From an uncultured Demequinaceae bacterium (GTDB lineage Bacteria; Actinomycetota; Actinomycetes; Actinomycetales; Demequinaceae): a stretch of 37,684 bases of DNA. The stretch lies in assembly GCA_964392875.1 (NCBI GenBank), contig CAYMRO010000001.1, positions 1-37,684 on the forward strand, read 5' to 3'. Shown piece by piece: positions 4,381-9,478 of this stretch; the first letter of the stretch is position 1; every line of letters begins with the position of its first letter. The notes under the pieces are model-generated. The model made no database searches and had not been told where the DNA came from. It was given only the letters and a program-made list of their open reading frames with translations. A program made the position numbers and the translations under genes.

Positions 4381-5535
4381 CTACGGCACTCGCAGTATTC
4401 GCAACGGGTCACGGTATGCGGCGTAGGCGGCGATCGGCGCGCTGGTGATGAGCGTTAGCAGAACGGCCAGGCCAGCGACCCCCGCCACGAACTCCCATGT
4501 GGGCAGCGAGCCAGCAGTGGCCGCGACGGCGGCGACCCCCGCGCCGGTTCCCACCGCGGTGCCGATGACGGCTCCTATCGCCGCCTGTGCGAGAAGCGTG
4601 GCGACGAGGGCCGAGCGGGTGGCGCCTAGCGCTCGGCGACGGCCAAACTCCCGGCGCCTAGAAACGACGGCGGAGAGCACAGTGACGGCGATGATCACCG
4701 CGCCGACACCCATGACTACGGCCATCAACTGCCGGGAGGCGGCGCCGAGGCGGCCAGCGATGACGTCCCTCAGCGCGATCGCACCCTTGGGGGTCTCCAC
4801 TGTGAGCGCCGTGGGATTGAGGGCGGGCGTCGAGGTCGTTAGGACGCCCTCAAGGCGATCGATTACCGTGACGTCGCTCGCCAGCACGTAGACGTAGCGC
4901 AGCGTTTTCACGTCGTCGGGTTGCGCGGCAATGAGAACTGTGTCGTTCAAATTCGCCAGTGGTCCGGTGGCTTTGAAGACGCCAACCACGCCCACCGGGT
5001 CGGCGTTCGGGTCAGCCGCCGAACGGACCCTCCCAAGGCCGGGTCCAAGATTCAGTCCGTCCGTCGCCCCTAAGCCAACGATAGCTTCGCCTGGGAGGGG
5101 AGGCCGCCCCTGCACCAAGGTGAAGTCCGGAGGCAAGTCGCCAACCATAGCCCGGGCGGCGAATGGCGATGCGGGCAACGCGGGATTCACCACGTCCGCG
5201 GCGGCACCCAAGCCGAGCGTCCAGGCGACGTCGGAGAGCCTGGCCAACTCGGCTGGCGCCTCGGGCAAAATGCCAGCCACACCGCCGTCGTCCGAGATGA
5301 CGATGAGGCGCGTCCCGGCGGAGTCGATCTGGCCCACCACCTGCGCCTCATTCGCCGCGGCCTGGCCGGTGGTGACGAGGATCGAAAAGCTTACGCTGGC
5401 CAGCACCAGCACGAGCGTAATCGTGGTCGCCAACTGCGCTCGAGCGCCGGCGACGGCATCCCTGATCAACGCTGCGGTGCGCGGAACGCCCGGCCACGAC
5501 CCCGCAGCCCGCGCGTCGCGAGTTTCTGTGCTCAT
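4381..5535 (-). CDS. MacB/FtsX-type ABC transporter permease
   Basis: N-terminal TM, large extracytoplasmic domain, three C-terminal TMs with RRREFG.RRALGA motif, ending DPLRILR. Confidence 0.88.
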   Translation of the reverse strand: MSTETRDARAAGSWPGVPRTAALIRDAVAGARAQLATTITLVLVLASVSFSILVTTGQAAANEAQVVGQIDSAGTRLIVISDDGGVAGILPEAPAELARLSDVAWTLGLGAAADVVNPALPASPFAARAMVGDLPPDFTLVQGRPPLPGEAIVGLGATDGLNLGPGLGRVRSAADPNADPVGVVGVFKATGPLANLNDTVLIAAQPDDVKTLRYVYVLASDVTVIDRLEGVLTTSTPALNPTALTVETPKGAIALRDVIAGRLGAASRQLMAVVMGVGAVIIAVTVLSAVVSRRREFGRRRALGATRSALVATLLAQAAIGAVIGTAVGTGAGVAAVAATAGSLPTWEFVAGVAGLAVLLTLITSAPIAAYAAYRDPLRILRVP

Positions 5536-6254
5536 GGGGTCGCCCGCGAGCCGACCTCGGCGCCGCCGTCAGCGGCGAGCCGAATCTCATGGTCGGAGCG
5601 GCTCGCGAGGCTCTTGTCATGGGTCGCGAGGATCACGGTGCCGCCGTTCTTGGCGTGGTCCACCAGCGCCTCCCACACGACCTCGGCGGAGGCGTCGTCG
5701 AGATTGCCCGTGGGCTCATCCGCGAGCACCACGCGCGGATCGGTGAGCAGGGCGCGGCAGATCGCCACCCGTTGGGCCTGCCCGCCGGAGATCTCTCCCG
5801 GCCGGTGGTCCGCCCTGTGCTCCAAGCCAAACCGGGTCAGCATCGCACGCGCCCTACTCGCGGCATCGTCGTGTGACATGCCCGCGAACAGGCCGGAGTC
5901 GCAGACGTTCGCCAGCACCGTTCGTGAGGGATCGAGCAGGGCGTCCTGGAAGACGAATCCCACCTGCGCGGCGCGGAGCCTCGATCGGGCTACGTCTGGG
6001 AGGTTCGACGCCGCGCTGCCATTCCAGAGGACCTCGCCGCCCGAGGGCCGGATCATGAGCGCGAGCAAGTAAAGCAGGGTGGACTTGCCGGAGCCCGAAG
6101 GCCCCGTGAGGGTCGTGACCGCGCCAATGGGAATGTCGACCGTCAGATTGTCGATCACCGCGGCACCATTGGAGCGATAGGCGAAGGTAAGGCCACGCGC
6201 ACCGACAACGGTTCGCGCTTCTGGACGCGCCGCGAAACCTGCGGCCATGCTCAT
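5532..6254 (-). CDS. MacB/LolD-type ABC ATPase
   Basis: GPSGSGKS, VFQ, ISGGQAQR, LADEPTGNLD, ATHD. Start moved to ATG 6254, which overlaps the upstream stop (ATGA). Confidence 0.9.
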   Translation of the reverse strand: MSMAAGFAARPEARTVVGARGLTFAYRSNGAAVIDNLTVDIPIGAVTTLTGPSGSGKSTLLYLLALMIRPSGGEVLWNGSAASNLPDVARSRLRAAQVGFVFQDALLDPSRTVLANVCDSGLFAGMSHDDAASRARAMLTRFGLEHRADHRPGEISGGQAQRVAICRALLTDPRVVLADEPTGNLDDASAEVVWEALVDHAKNGGTVILATHDKSLASRSDHEIRLAADGGAEVGSRATP

Positions 6255-7357
6255 GGCGCAGGCGTCCAAGTCTCGGCGGGAGAGCCCCCGCTCGGAGACG
6301 CAGGGGTGCCCGCGAGGACCACGGTGGTGCCGTCCTCCACGCCCGCGAGGACAACGCTTCCCTGACCTTGGCCAACAATGGTCACCGGGACGTGGGTGCC
6401 GTCCGTCAGTGCCACATAGGGGTCTCCGGCCGCGGTGAAGCCCACGGCGGCGGCCGGCACTCCCGGGCCCGTCACCGAGGGAATGAGTATCTGCTGCGCC
6501 GGATAGACGGCCTCCGCCGGGATAAGCGACACTTGGTAGCACTTGTCGGCGCAAATGGAAGTGCCGTCTTGTCGTGTGAGGGTCAGCATCGTGTTGTTCG
6601 ACTGGTCTACCTGGGAATTCGCAATCACCGTCTTTACCGTCTCGTCACCGAAGGTCACCTCGATGGGCAGCGACGGGTCATACATGGAACCCGAGGGAAT
6701 CGTGGCGATGAATTCTGGCTCCCGGTCTAGCACGGACAGCACCACGTCTCCGGGGTTGAGGCGTTTGCCCACCTGGACGTCGTCGGCCACCCGCAGCCGC
6801 GCCGGCAGCCTTGTGGCGAATACAACGTCGCTCGCGCGCACAATCCCGTCCGTCTCCACGCCCAACTTCGCCTGCCACAACTGCACGGCGCGCTTCGTGA
6901 CCGGGCCAAAGTCGCCGTCGGCCGAGCCGTCGAGGTACCCAAGTTCAATGAGGAAGCGCTGCACTTGCGCAACATCGGCCCCGTGTTCACCCTGGGACAG
7001 GTCGCGGAAGGCGGGAACCTCGCCCACGGCGGCCACCACCGGTCGCAGGTCCACCGAGTAGAGGCGGTCACCCAAGTTGGCGGTGTCGCCGTCCGCCACA
7101 TCGAGCGACGTCAGCACGCCCGACGCCGCGCCCACCCCGAACGGGCGAGCGGCCCACGACGCAGAGACGGCTACGGGCATGGATTGGCCCACGGTCGTCT
7201 CTGCGACCTTGACCGTCGCTGGCGCATCCGCGGCCTCGTCAACATGCGGAGGCGCGAACGCCCATCTTCCGAAGATCAGGCCTAAAGCCAGCGTGACGAC
7301 CAAGGCAAGCACCCATGGCCACGTACGCGCGAGCCCAGTGGCGCCCTCGTCGGTCAA
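6251..7357 (-). CDS. Peptidoglycan-binding-domain adaptor (MFP-like) of the ABC system
   Basis: N-terminal TM, barrel-sandwich-like GVLT...GD segment, PG_binding_1-like RDLSQG..G.DV.QVQ.FL..LGY...ADG.FG..T..AV..WQ...G...DG. TTG start at 7357 overlaps the upstream TGA and follows GGGGGA. Confidence 0.85.
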   Translation of the reverse strand: MTDEGATGLARTWPWVLALVVTLALGLIFGRWAFAPPHVDEAADAPATVKVAETTVGQSMPVAVSASWAARPFGVGAASGVLTSLDVADGDTANLGDRLYSVDLRPVVAAVGEVPAFRDLSQGEHGADVAQVQRFLIELGYLDGSADGDFGPVTKRAVQLWQAKLGVETDGIVRASDVVFATRLPARLRVADDVQVGKRLNPGDVVLSVLDREPEFIATIPSGSMYDPSLPIEVTFGDETVKTVIANSQVDQSNNTMLTLTRQDGTSICADKCYQVSLIPAEAVYPAQQILIPSVTGPGVPAAAVGFTAAGDPYVALTDGTHVPVTIVGQGQGSVVLAGVEDGTTVVLAGTPASPSGGSPAETWTPAP

Positions 7358-7941
7358 GAATCCCCCGTCGGAGCCAGGACTTCGAAGTTTGGTCCGGACT
7401 GCGGGCACGCATTGGCTAGTGCAAACAACTTGTCTTTCGCGAGTGAGTTCGTCGCATTCACGAGTTCGGCGTATGGATTCCACGCAGATTGCCAGTCGGA
7501 GTCTTTCCACGTGTCGAAAGTGGGCGGTTCAGAAACGTCAAACCCGTGCGCGACGATGCAGGCGCGTGTGTCGAGCATCCGTTGGTACGCAGTGTCTGTG
7601 AGCGTCTTGTCGGCGAGGTGTTGGGGCAAAGGAAAGCGAGCGTTGCAATCGGCCGCCGCCTTTTCGAGAAGGTCTTGAGTCGCCGAGTCTTGCGGAAGGT
7701 CCACGAACCCAACGGAGCCGCCCATGGTCTTTACGGCCTTGAGCCCATGCTCGCTGTAGCACGAGATCTGACCGTCCTGGAATTTCTCATTCTCTTGACG
7801 CACCTGCGCCATCCACCCGGGCTCCACCCACCCCGGTGACGCGTCGAGGCCGGGCGCCTTTTGAGCGCATCCTGAAACGGCGACCAGCGCGAGTCCCAGC
7901 GCGAGCATAGTCACCGAGCCGGATCCGACTCGCCGCGTCAC
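7354..7941 (-). CDS. Lipoprotein with two Cys-pair repeats
   Basis: Lipobox LVAVSG-C. Repeated C-x-x-x-HG motif (CYSEHG, CIVAHG), each followed by a second Cys. GTG start overlaps the upstream TGA. Confidence 0.8.
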   Translation of the reverse strand: MTRRVGSGSVTMLALGLALVAVSGCAQKAPGLDASPGWVEPGWMAQVRQENEKFQDGQISCYSEHGLKAVKTMGGSVGFVDLPQDSATQDLLEKAAADCNARFPLPQHLADKTLTDTAYQRMLDTRACIVAHGFDVSEPPTFDTWKDSDWQSAWNPYAELVNATNSLAKDKLFALANACPQSGPNFEVLAPTGDS

Positions 7942-8255
7942 GTGCCGCAGAAGCCGGAGCCTGAGGTAGCTCCGGAGCCATTGACGGACCAGCTACCCGA
8001 ATACGAAGCGCCCTTCACCGTGATGCTAAAACCGGTCGATGTCGTCGAATCCGTGTATGAGTGTCCAGGAGCGGACACGGTGATCGGACCCGAGCCGCCT
8101 TTGTAACCGGTGGCCTTGACGAAGGTGCCGCTCGGACAACTGAGAGTTCCGCCCCACGTGCCGGCATTGGCAGTTCCTGCCGCCAATGGAACTGCCGCGA
8201 TCACAAGAGCAAAGGTGCCTGCGGCTATTCGAGTCCTGCGCGACAATGCGTGCAC
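7938..8255 (-). CDS. Small Sec-secreted Gly/Ser/Thr-rich two-cysteine protein (bacteriocin-like candidate)
   Basis: GGAGGGG RBS then GTG at 8255. Basic n-region, hydrophobic h-region, ANA cleavage site. Mature part about 74 aa, GTWGGTLSCP...SGFCGT. Confidence 0.75.
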   Translation of the reverse strand: MHALSRRTRIAAGTFALVIAAVPLAAGTANAGTWGGTLSCPSGTFVKATGYKGGSGPITVSAPGHSYTDSTTSTGFSITVKGASYSGSWSVNGSGATSGSGFCGT

Positions 8256-8299
8256 GTTTACCCCTCCGATATTCGGTGGCATCGTTGCCCCGCGAAACG

Positions 8300-8328
8300 A
8301 TCATGCAATAGAAAACGTTTTCGTGCAA
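8300..8328 (-). promoter_or_regulatory. Sigma70-type promoter with LacI-family operator palindrome in the spacer
   Basis: TTGCAC (8328-8323)-N17-CATGAT (8305-8300). Perfect palindrome GAAAACGTTTTC at 8311-8322. Confidence 0.6.
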
Positions 8329-8353
8329 CGGCAAAACAAGCGAGGATCGCAGA

Positions 8354-9478
8354 TTAATGCGGCTGATATGGGCTGACTACTACGTCTACCCGCTGGAACT
8401 CCTTGAGGTCGCTGTAGCCAGTGGTTGCCATTGACCGCCGCAGGGCTCCCATCAGGTTCGTGGTGCCATCTGCCGTTGTACCAGGACCAACGAGGATTTC
8501 CTCGAGAGTCCCAACGGTGCCAACGTGCACGCGTTCGCCACGCGGCAGAACGGGGTGGTGAGCTTCCGGACCCCAGTGCAGGCCGCGACCGGGCGCCTCC
8601 TCGGCCCGCGCAAGCGCCGCGCCAACCATCATCGCGTCCGCACCACATGCGATCGCCTTCACCATGTCACCGGAGCGGCCGATGCCGCCGTCGGCGATCA
8701 CGTGAACGTACCGGCCCCCAGATTCGTCAAGGTAATCGCGACGAGCTGCCGCGGCGTCGGCCACTGCTGTTGCCATGGGCGCGTGAATGCCAAGTGACTG
8801 GCGCGTGGTCTGCGCCGCGCCGCCGCCAAAGCCAACCAAAACGCCAGCCGCGCCGGTGCGCATGAGGTGCAGTGATGCCTGGTAGGTGGAGGCGCCGCCA
8901 ACGATGACGGGAACGTCGAGCTCGTAGATGAACTTCTTGAGGTTGAGCGGCTCCTCGGCGCCGGAGACGTGTTCCGCGCTCACGGTGGTGCCGCGGATGA
9001 TGAAGATGTCAACGCCCGCCTTGAGGACGGTGCCGTAGAACTCCTGGGTGCGCTGCGGGCTGAGGGCGCCCGCAACGGGCACGCCCGCCGCGCGAATCTC
9101 TTGGAGGCGCGCCGTGATGAGCTCGGGCTTGATGGGCTCGGCGTAGATCTGTTGCATGCGGCGCGTGGCATTTGCGCCCTCAAGCGCGGCGATCTCTTCA
9201 AGCTGCGCAGTTGGGTCCTCGTAGCGCGTCCACACGCCTTCAAGGTCGAGGACGCCGAGGCCGCCGTGCTGGCCCAATTGGATGGCCGTGGCCGGGCTCA
9301 TGACGGAGTCCATGGGGGCGGCGATTACGGGGATCGAGAACTCGAATGCGTCGATCTGCCAGCGAAGAGACACGTTCTGGGGATCGCGCGTGCGGCGCGA
9401 CGGCACAATTGCGACGTCGTCAAAGGAATAGGCGCGGCGCCCGCGCTTTCCGCGGCCAATCTCGATCTCGTTGCTCAC
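8354..9478 (-). CDS. guaB3: GuaB3 family IMP dehydrogenase-related protein
   Basis: EIEIGRGKRGRRAY.FDD, APMD, VIADGG, TGYSDLKEFQRV. TAGGCT lies 6 nt before the GTG. Confidence 0.92.
   Translation of the reverse strand: MSNEIEIGRGKRGRRAYSFDDVAIVPSRRTRDPQNVSLRWQIDAFEFSIPVIAAPMDSVMSPATAIQLGQHGGLGVLDLEGVWTRYEDPTAQLEEIAALEGANATRRMQQIYAEPIKPELITARLQEIRAAGVPVAGALSPQRTQEFYGTVLKAGVDIFIIRGTTVSAEHVSGAEEPLNLKKFIYELDVPVIVGGASTYQASLHLMRTGAAGVLVGFGGGAAQTTRQSLGIHAPMATAVADAAAARRDYLDESGGRYVHVIADGGIGRSGDMVKAIACGADAMMVGAALARAEEAPGRGLHWGPEAHHPVLPRGERVHVGTVGTLEEILVGPGTTADGTTNLMGALRRSMATTGYSDLKEFQRVDVVVSPYQPH

What the first reader, a model, noticed from the sequence alone, without database searches (positions are those of the whole stretch)
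4381..8330. Five-gene coupled operon: small secreted two-Cys protein + lipoprotein + PG-binding adaptor + MacB-type ABC transporter
Seen: all four junctions are 4-nt start/stop overlaps (GTGA 7938-7941, TTGA 7354-7357, ATGA 6251-6254, ATGA 5532-5535). The 5' part looks more AT-rich than the flanks, and the unit sits directly after guaB3 in a housekeeping region with its own promoter. Known: MacB/FtsX-type transporters with an adaptor (e.g. Bacillus YknXYZ) act on extracytoplasmic peptides, and lipoprotein/PG-binding/ATPase/permease cassettes occur in Actinobacteria. Sec-exported lactococcin 972-type bacteriocins are also encoded beside a membrane protein and an ABC ATPase. Inference: the first gene is the dedicated cargo, either an unmodified antimicrobial or signalling protein or a polymerising surface subunit. 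The four downstream products would provide immunity, release through the wall or assembly. I do not recognise this as a characterised system.
Basis: partly seen in the sequence, partly recalled or inferred. Interest (0 to 1): 0.8.

Follow-up and report, generated by a model that had tools for sequence, protein, structure and literature searches.

The report
Secreted protein–lipoprotein pairs on MacB pump
This is a real, mobile five-gene unit of actinobacteria in which a highly variable small secreted protein sits beside a surface lipoprotein predicted to grip it and a wall-anchored MacB-type pump; it is likely an undescribed bacteriocin-like weapon with its own immunity kit, although killing is untested.

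Summary
The operon is real: five minus-strand genes with four 4-nt overlaps, inserted after guaB3 in a Demequina genome. No promoter was detected.

Gene A encodes a 74-residue secreted two-Cys beta-sandwich of an unnamed family (63 clusters). B is an unnamed four-Cys lipoprotein, C an adaptor-like protein with a peptidoglycan-binding domain, and D/E a MacB-type ABC pump.

In 49 related loci B is always present and A occurs in 34, nearly always beside a B. All 4 informative held-out loci have A. One genome holds five intact different A genes, four with their own B, around one pump. A and B are predicted to bind (score 0.88, best control 0.02).

A is not in the lactococcin 972 family by sequence. 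Best reading (0.5): a polymorphic bacteriocin-like protein with an immunity lipoprotein and a clearing pump. Main rival (0.27): dedicated export of a surface or fibre protein with a chaperone. Toxicity and expression are untested, one orphan A exists, and no A–B co-evolution signal was found.

The scan noted the B family before on other DNA (e1-9542116); the A family and A–B pairing did not come up.

The parts
7938..8255 (-). Gene A: 105-aa precursor with a Sec-type signal peptide (about 31 aa, ending ANA) and a 74-aa mature seven-strand beta-sandwich with Cys near both ends; unnamed family
   Evidence: (pLDDT 97.8); signal peptide judged by sequence heuristic only
7354..7941 (-). Gene B: 195-aa lipoprotein (lipobox VSGC, Cys25) with four further invariant Cys; acidic, mostly helical; unnamed family; predicted to bind A
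   Evidence: (pLDDT 93.7)
6251..7357 (-). Gene C: 368-aa single-pass adaptor-like protein (TM 16-34) with PG_binding_1 at residues 126-173, in the position where MacA-type adaptors have the helical hairpin (position inferred)
   Evidence: TIGR01730 E 0.04; MexC-like chain E 4.9e-5
5532..6254 (-). Gene D: 240-aa ABC ATPase of the LolD/FtsE/MacB class; Walker A, Q-loop, signature, Walker B and H-loop intact
4381..5535 (-). Gene E: 384-aa MacB/FtsX-type permease with one TM, an extracellular domain of about 225 aa, then three TMs
8256..8353 (-). 98-bp leader between the guaB3 stop and A. It holds a ribosome site and a 12-bp perfect palindrome at 8311-8322 that occurs once in this genome and is shared with G016; possible operator
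   Evidence: no promoter consensus
8354..9478 (-). guaB3-like IMPDH gene; its 3' end is the insertion site (context, not part of the unit)

Best explanation
The unit is a mobile five-gene cassette whose first gene likely encodes a polymorphic, unmodified bacteriocin-like protein, with the lipoprotein as its predicted binding partner and likely immunity factor and the MacB-type pump likely clearing it from the producer's membrane surface. Step 1 (inferred from the signal peptide): A leaves by Sec, is cleaved, and closes one disulfide between its first and last strands. Step 2 (predicted): lipoprotein B on the outer face of the membrane grips A by pairing two of its own strands with A strands 34-38 and 44-49, masking A's variable face. 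Step 3 (inferred from the MacB family): D/E use ATP on the outside of the membrane, braced against the wall through C's peptidoglycan-binding domain, to strip A (or the A-B complex) away and release it. Step 4 (inferred): cells lacking a matching B and pump are hit at the envelope; the target is unknown. Shown directly: gene anatomy, family membership of D/E, A-B linkage, hypervariability, extra and orphan B genes, and insertion and plasmid carriage.
For: Linkage: B in 49 of 49 related loci, A in 34, two or more B in 8, and no A in 15; 34 of 36 A genes lie within 400 nt of a B, also when the pair moves behind E or to the other strand. Array: G853 has five intact A genes, 15-35% identical, four followed directly by their own B, around one D/E. 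Binding: predicted A-B complex 0.88 in three runs, best of 3 controls 0.02, contacts agreeing at least 96%, partner pLDDT at least 93. The mark was reached by 116 of 157 solved complexes and 2 of 215 mismatched pairs; these counts hold only roughly with my own alignments. Divergence: median pairwise identity A 0.19, B 0.22, E 0.29, C 0.33, D 0.50 over 24 loci; mature A is mildly cationic (median +2.5) and B strongly acidic (median -19). Mobility: 8 of 64 genus genomes; after guaB3 in 2 of 30 loci, with the empty site seen in 2; a 113-bp repeat of the guaB3 end flanks the G016 copy; one copy is on a mobilizable plasmid. Precedent: MacB-type pumps with adaptor protect monoderms from SDP and AS-48 (PMC5985334, passages); lcn972 is followed by a putative ABC immunity transporter (PMC4055356, passages); a PF09683 gene occupies the same guaB3 slot in G188.
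Against: No toxicity, expression or secretion data exist here. A has no sequence link to any known bacteriocin. G189 carries an intact A with no B or pump nearby and no clear B elsewhere (best E 1e-3, partial), which a strict self-toxic protein should not allow unless it is silent. G707 has three A genes and one adjacent B. A and B divergence are not correlated beyond shared descent (partial Mantel r 0.025, p 0.36). Close cousins of a true partner also pass the complex test (10 of 12 colicin pairs), so cognate specificity is not shown. Some A proteins are neutral or acidic (-8 to 0 in 9 of 24). In G016, A, C and E are all broken together, which is decay or sequencing error, not immunity retention. 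27 of the 34 A genes were picked by a pattern upstream of C and most of them went into the profile, and the loci are kin, so they are not independent.
Confidence: 0.5

Rival explanations
1. Dedicated secretion and assembly line for a surface protein. A is a small lectin-like adhesin, coat protein or fibre subunit; B is a chaperone that caps A's exposed edge strands; C/D/E move A, or the lipid-anchored A-B complex, to or through the wall, in the manner of Aat/dispersin or LolCDE.
For: B is predicted to pair with two outer strands of A, as chaperones of beta proteins do (recalled). A's weak fold neighbours include lectins and carbohydrate-binding modules (Z up to 4.0). D's best NCBIfam match is LolD, and E weakly matches MacB and LolF. 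MacB pumps export Sec-secreted disulfide or 10-kDa beta proteins, STII and dispersin (PMC5985334, passages). Three tandem A with one B in G707 and the orphan A in G189 fit this better.
Against: 15 of 49 loci keep B-C-D-E without an A-family gene and 8 keep extra B genes. Different A genes in one array mostly carry their own B. No acyltransferase, sortase or outer-membrane channel gene is in the unit.
Confidence: 0.27
2. A is a secreted protective or decoy protein, for example an inhibitor of enemy lysozymes, proteases or amylases. B parks it at the membrane and the pump releases or recycles it.
For: In the distant clade of the same cassette the first slot is sometimes a peptidase inhibitor I36 protein (2 of 12 over the Pfam cut-off, 1 below). 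PliG, a lysozyme inhibitor, is among the weak fold neighbours (Z 3.8). An orphan A would be harmless.
Against: It does not explain B-only loci or one B per A. The fold matches are at background level.
Confidence: 0.1
3. A is a strain-specific signal and B its receptor; the ABC complex reports binding or clears the signal.
For: Variable ligand-lipoprotein pairs with predicted binding. Some loci have regulators nearby: an ECF sigma pair before L053, HTH-type genes before the C copies in L257, and a response regulator in L057 (labels from reading the sequences).
Against: The window unit has no kinase or regulator. MacB-type pumps have no path across the membrane for import (PMC5985334, passages).
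Confidence: 0.09
4. A is a chance passenger; B-C-D-E is a generic envelope-stress pump.
For: 15 of 49 loci lack A, and several distant Pseudonocardia, Micromonospora and Nonomuraea loci have B-C-D-E only.
Against: The A pattern occurs at 0.05 per 2.6 kb in the own genome against 30 of 49 loci; 0 of 20 other ABC loci have an A hit; A travels with B through rearrangements; the complex is predicted.
Confidence: 0.04

Closest known systems
Bacillus YknWXYZ and Enterococcus AS-48EFGH (MacB-type pump, adaptor and a fourth protein, protecting against SDP or AS-48)
   Same: Four-component layout in a monoderm: accessory protein, adaptor, separate ATPase and MacB-type permease, acting outside the membrane (PMC5985334, passages).
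   Different: The accessory protein here is a four-Cys lipoprotein, not a membrane protein such as YknW or the 4-TM AS-48E. The adaptor carries a peptidoglycan-binding domain. The putative cargo is a folded disulfide beta protein encoded in the same operon and swapped between loci.
Lactococcin 972 locus
   Same: Small unmodified beta-sandwich protein beside a putative ABC immunity transporter (PMC4055356, passages). Weak fold match to 2lgn (Z 3.6, rmsd 3.2, 56 aligned). One family member uses the same guaB3 slot.
   Different: No sequence or profile similarity. Lcn972 has no cysteines (PMC8538875, passages), while A has two invariant ones. No lipoprotein or adaptor gene is described for that locus in the passages read.
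Streptococcus pneumoniae Spr0693-0694-0695 (MacAB-like pump)
   Same: Adaptor plus split ATPase and permease in a Gram-positive (PMC5768738, abstract and outline only).
   Different: Spr0693 forms a nanotube channel; C appears to have a wall-binding domain in that position. No cargo or lipoprotein gene is mentioned in the abstract.
Aat/dispersin-CexE and MacAB-TolC export of STII
   Same: A MacB-type pump dedicated to a Sec-exported small protein (PMC5985334, passages; PMC7943197, abstract).
   Different: These are diderm systems with TolC and, for Aat, the acyltransferase AatD and an N-terminal glycine. None of these is a feature of the present family.
NisI/NisFEG lantibiotic immunity
   Same: Two-tier logic of a binding lipoprotein plus an ABC pump (search listing, and recall).
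   Different: Different ABC class and different lipoprotein; the cargo here is an unmodified folded protein.

Membership tests
Type VII (MacB/FtsX) ABC transporter | Four-TM permease with a large extracellular domain between TM1 and TM2 and an FtsX-type C-terminus | tested here: met
   Hydropathy segments 27-45, 273-291, 310-328, 350-368; PF02687 45 bits, cut-off 25.5
Type VII (MacB/FtsX) ABC transporter | LolD/FtsE/MacB-class ATPase with intact motifs | tested here: met
   Best NCBIfam matches LolD and FtsE, below their equivalog cut-offs; motifs located
MacA/YknX/Spr0693-type adaptor | Membrane anchor, lipoyl and beta-barrel domains, and an alpha-helical hairpin that builds a tube | tested here: inconclusive
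   TM 16-34; weak MexC-like (E 4.9e-5) and TIGR01730 (E 0.04) matches; residues 126-173 are PG_binding_1 instead of a hairpin. C was not folded.
Lactococcin 972 family | Match to PF09683 or to a profile of its members | tested here: not met
   0 of 75 A sequences; hhalign probability 0.1% against 7 actinobacterial members
Lactococcin 972 family | Same small beta-sandwich fold | tested here: inconclusive
   2lgn Z 3.6, rmsd 3.2, 56 aligned, rank 25 among tied background rows
Lactococcin 972 family | Lipid II binding and antibacterial activity | not testable with these tools
   Needs experiment
YknWXYZ / AS-48EFGH | Fourth component is a polytopic membrane protein | tested here: not met
   B has a lipobox and a soluble helical fold
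Aat/dispersin | AatD acyltransferase, TolC-like channel and conserved N-terminal glycine | tested here: not met
   No such genes in the unit; the first mature residue varies across the family
Polymorphic toxin-immunity systems (features recalled) | Variable toxin gene followed by an immunity gene, with arrays and orphan immunity genes | tested here: met
   34 of 36 A within 400 nt of a B; 8 of 49 loci with extra B; 15 of 49 without A; array in G853. Roles are inferred.
Polymorphic toxin-immunity systems (features recalled) | Conserved trafficking domain fused to a swappable toxin domain | tested here: not met
   A is a single domain; 62 of 63 library hits are 68-184 aa
Polymorphic toxin-immunity systems (features recalled) | Toxicity neutralised by the cognate partner only | not testable with these tools
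   Only one complex job was allowed, so non-cognate pairs were not folded

The most novel reading that the evidence does not exclude
A phylum-wide, undescribed class of polymorphic folded-protein bacteriocins in Actinomycetota: interchangeable A-B toxin-immunity modules of two unnamed families plug into a shared wall-anchored MacB-type machine. The machine takes A from lipoprotein B and launches it past the peptidoglycan, amounting to a monoderm second-step secretion system with its own cargo receptor.
Probability: 0.35. Interest if true: 0.85.

Novelty: new variant of a known kind. Interest (0 to 1): 0.7.

Why it matters
What MacB-type pumps with adaptors do in bacteria without an outer membrane is an open question; the review passages read call the role of YknW enigmatic. 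This cassette supplies a candidate cargo, a candidate cargo receptor with a predicted interface, and natural arrays of different pairs, so specificity and direction can be tested directly. If A is antibacterial, it is a large pool of small, disulfide-closed antimicrobials that standard family scans miss: no Pfam or NCBIfam name, and unnamed in the 10 clusters checked.

Tried and rejected
Family and structure searches that found nothing. Pfam and NCBIfam for A and B: no meaningful hit. PDB sequence search with the A profile: 0 hits. Foldseek against PDB and the viral library for A, and PDB for B: none at E<=0.001. VIA wide search: best Z 4.7 for A and 3.2 for B, both background level; this does not show the folds are new. 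ESM Atlas: only unnamed actinobacterial clusters.

Hypotheses tested and dropped. Lcn972 membership was rejected by sequence; the one ORF hit by both profiles (G215) matched the A profile only at positions 4-79, probably through the signal peptide. A-B co-evolution: one search gave p 0.03 but had a trimming bug (signal peptides and read-through included); the corrected one search gives p 0.36 and is the one used. The palindrome is not a family feature: 1 of 28 upstream regions. The window has no downstream copy of the guaB3 end.

Blanks. Promoter and terminator scan: none. No RNA holder was listed.

Literature. Ten searches listed no paper describing this unit; two of them returned nothing. 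Two 2026 papers were checked by term search and do not cover it (PMC13460014; bioRxiv 10.64898/2026.09.08.750141). The YknWXYZ primary paper is not held. The library lacks most subscription papers, and no supplements were read.
Full report
Observation. The five ORFs and the four 4-nt overlaps are exactly as reported. A probably starts at GTG 8255 (105 aa). A and B are more AT-rich than C-E, with GC3 0.64 and 0.70 against 0.79-0.83. No promoter or terminator consensus was found. The 98-bp leader holds a 12-bp palindrome that occurs once in the genome and is shared with the G016 copy only. The cassette is single-copy in the own genome, which is 87% complete; a distant C paralogue lies on contig C241. 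Titles of same-genus records indicate Demequina.

The pump. D is a LolD/FtsE/MacB-class ATPase with intact motifs, and E has the 1+3 TM MacB/FtsX layout. C has one TM, weak adaptor similarity (MexC-like chain E 4.9e-5; TIGR01730 E 0.04) and a strong PG_binding_1 domain at 126-173. From the sequence I infer that this domain replaces the tube-forming hairpin; C was not folded. MacB-type pumps act on the outer side of the membrane on Sec-exported cargo such as STII and dispersin, and in monoderms protect against SDP and AS-48 (PMC5985334, passages). PMC5768738 was seen as abstract and outline only.

A and B are unnamed families. A folds confidently as a seven-strand sandwich (pLDDT 97.8) and B as a mostly helical domain (pLDDT 93.7). 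Neither has a clear fold or family match. A profile of 27 mature A sequences found 63 clusters at 50% identity among 1.84 billion representatives. At least 9 are query rows and one 371-aa repeat is false; nearly all the rest are stand-alone proteins of about 100 aa with a signal peptide and two conserved Cys. In a leave-one-out test 13 of 28 A sequences beat all 200 shuffles, so homology is shown for about half and inferred from position and pattern for the others.

Linkage. A profile of C found the close subfamily in 8 of 64 genus genomes, 26 of 401 order genomes and 7 of 381 phylum genomes; only 5 candidates per genome were scored in the large searches. I kept 49 non-duplicate loci with a C score of at least 190 bits; weaker loci were set aside as a distant clade. 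A pattern for a signal peptide with Cys near both ends hit the 2.6 kb upstream in 30 of 49 loci (2 false on inspection, 1 another small protein type), against 0.05 expected from the own genome. With profiles over longer regions, B is in 49 of 49, A in 34 of 49 (28 of 42 without the seed loci; 2 broken), two or more B in 8, and 34 of 36 A genes lie within 400 nt of a B. This count is partly circular and the loci are kin.

Held-out and reciprocal tests. Of 5 loci not used for any profile, 4 have A next to B (3 by profile, 1 by pattern) and 1 is cut by the contig end; 0 of 20 other ABC loci of the own genome have an A hit. Of 14 regions fetched around A-profile hits outside the training set, 5 hold B-C-D-E. 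The other 9 do not: 7 are partial matches, 1 is a weak full-length match, and 1 (G189) is a clear intact orphan without B in the genome. Both metagenome contigs found with close A relatives continue into B and C.

Modularity. The A-B pair moves as a unit: before C, behind E, or on the other strand. G853 has five intact A genes (15-35% identical) and one broken or weak one. Four intact A are followed directly by their own B, with two C and one D/E. G707 has three tandem A with one adjacent B. In the distant clade the first slot holds other small secreted proteins, including peptidase inhibitor I36 (2 of 12 over the cut-off), or nothing. Median identity over 24 complete loci is A 0.19, B 0.22, E 0.29, C 0.33, D 0.50. 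A is mildly cationic and B acidic; no A-B co-evolution signal remains after controlling for C-D-E (p 0.36).

Binding. The A-B complex scored 0.88 in three runs against a best control of 0.02, with contacts agreeing at least 96% and partner pLDDT at least 93. The mark was reached by 116 of 157 solved and 2 of 215 mismatched pairs, counts that hold only roughly with my alignments. I found no solved look-alike of either chain that the model could recall. B residues 53-57 pair with A 34-38 and B 161-165 with A 44-49 (mature numbering). The B hairpin strand is nearly gap-free in 37 rows, the B tail varies in length (1-17 residues after the last Cys), and interface columns are less conserved than the rest in both proteins, as surface positions generally are. 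The model supports binding; it does not show it, nor cognate specificity.

Mobility. Among the 30 best of 62 guaB3 matches in the genus, the cassette follows guaB3 in 2. In 2 others guaB3 runs straight into the ABC-F gene that flanks the window's cassette, which is the empty site. In G016 the unit is bracketed by a 113-bp, 96% identical repeat of the guaB3 3' end; I saw no integrase among the ORFs read. A C-D-E-A-B copy lies on a mobilizable Clavibacter plasmid, where A, B and C are not in the record's gene table. A lactococcin 972-family gene uses the same guaB3 slot in G188.

Mechanism and verdict. A kept beside B, extra and orphan B genes, arrays of distinct pairs, fast divergence and patchy horizontal spread are the pattern of toxin-immunity modules, so I commit to a bacteriocin-like A with lipoprotein immunity and a clearing or releasing pump (0.5). 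A chaperoned export of a surface or fibre protein remains a serious rival (0.27), helped by the orphan A and the edge-strand grip. The unit works like YknWXYZ, AS-48EFGH or NisI/NisFEG beside an Lcn972-like cargo, but fails membership of each on tested features. Ten literature searches listed no description of it, within the limits of the library. Rating: new variant of a known kind, interest 0.7.

Noticed in passing
L009:9969-10081 and 5854-5966 (G016): The cassette is flanked by a 113-bp, 96% identical direct repeat of the guaB3 3' end. In this copy A has an internal stop and C and E are frameshifted. A RelBE-like pair and a metal-transport-like gene follow (labels from reading the sequence).
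   Followed up: partly
L212:1486-1869 (G188): A PF09683 lactococcin 972-family gene lies directly 3' of guaB3. What follows guaB3 varies widely across 30 genus loci, suggesting an insertion hotspot.
   Followed up: partly
L257:241-13472 (G853): Array of five intact A genes plus one broken or weak one, at least seven B genes, two full C genes and one D/E; small HTH-type genes precede the C copies.
   Followed up: partly
window 8311-8322: Perfect 12-bp palindrome, unique in the genome (0.02 expected), resembling LacI-family operators (recalled); shared only with G016.
   Followed up: partly
L177:5707-6033 (G189): Intact orphan A in a low-GC island with IS remnants after recR, overlapped by an unknown 101-aa ORF.
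   Followed up: partly
G000 contig C241 (L038): The own genome has a second, distant cassette with a four-Cys lipoprotein and a C paralogue, cut by the contig end; no small secreted gene was seen before it.
   Followed up: no
L023-L040, L056, L064, L181:2910-3332: The distant clade of the same cassette carries several other small secreted protein types in the first slot, some of them peptidase inhibitor I36.
   Followed up: partly
L053:1950-3091: A B-C-D-E unit without A follows an ECF sigma factor and a likely anti-sigma gene, as expected of a stress-induced defence pump (labels from reading the sequence).
   Followed up: no
window 7354-7812: Public protein records start B at residue 44 (152 aa), dropping the lipoprotein signal, so the family is probably often mis-called.
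   Followed up: no
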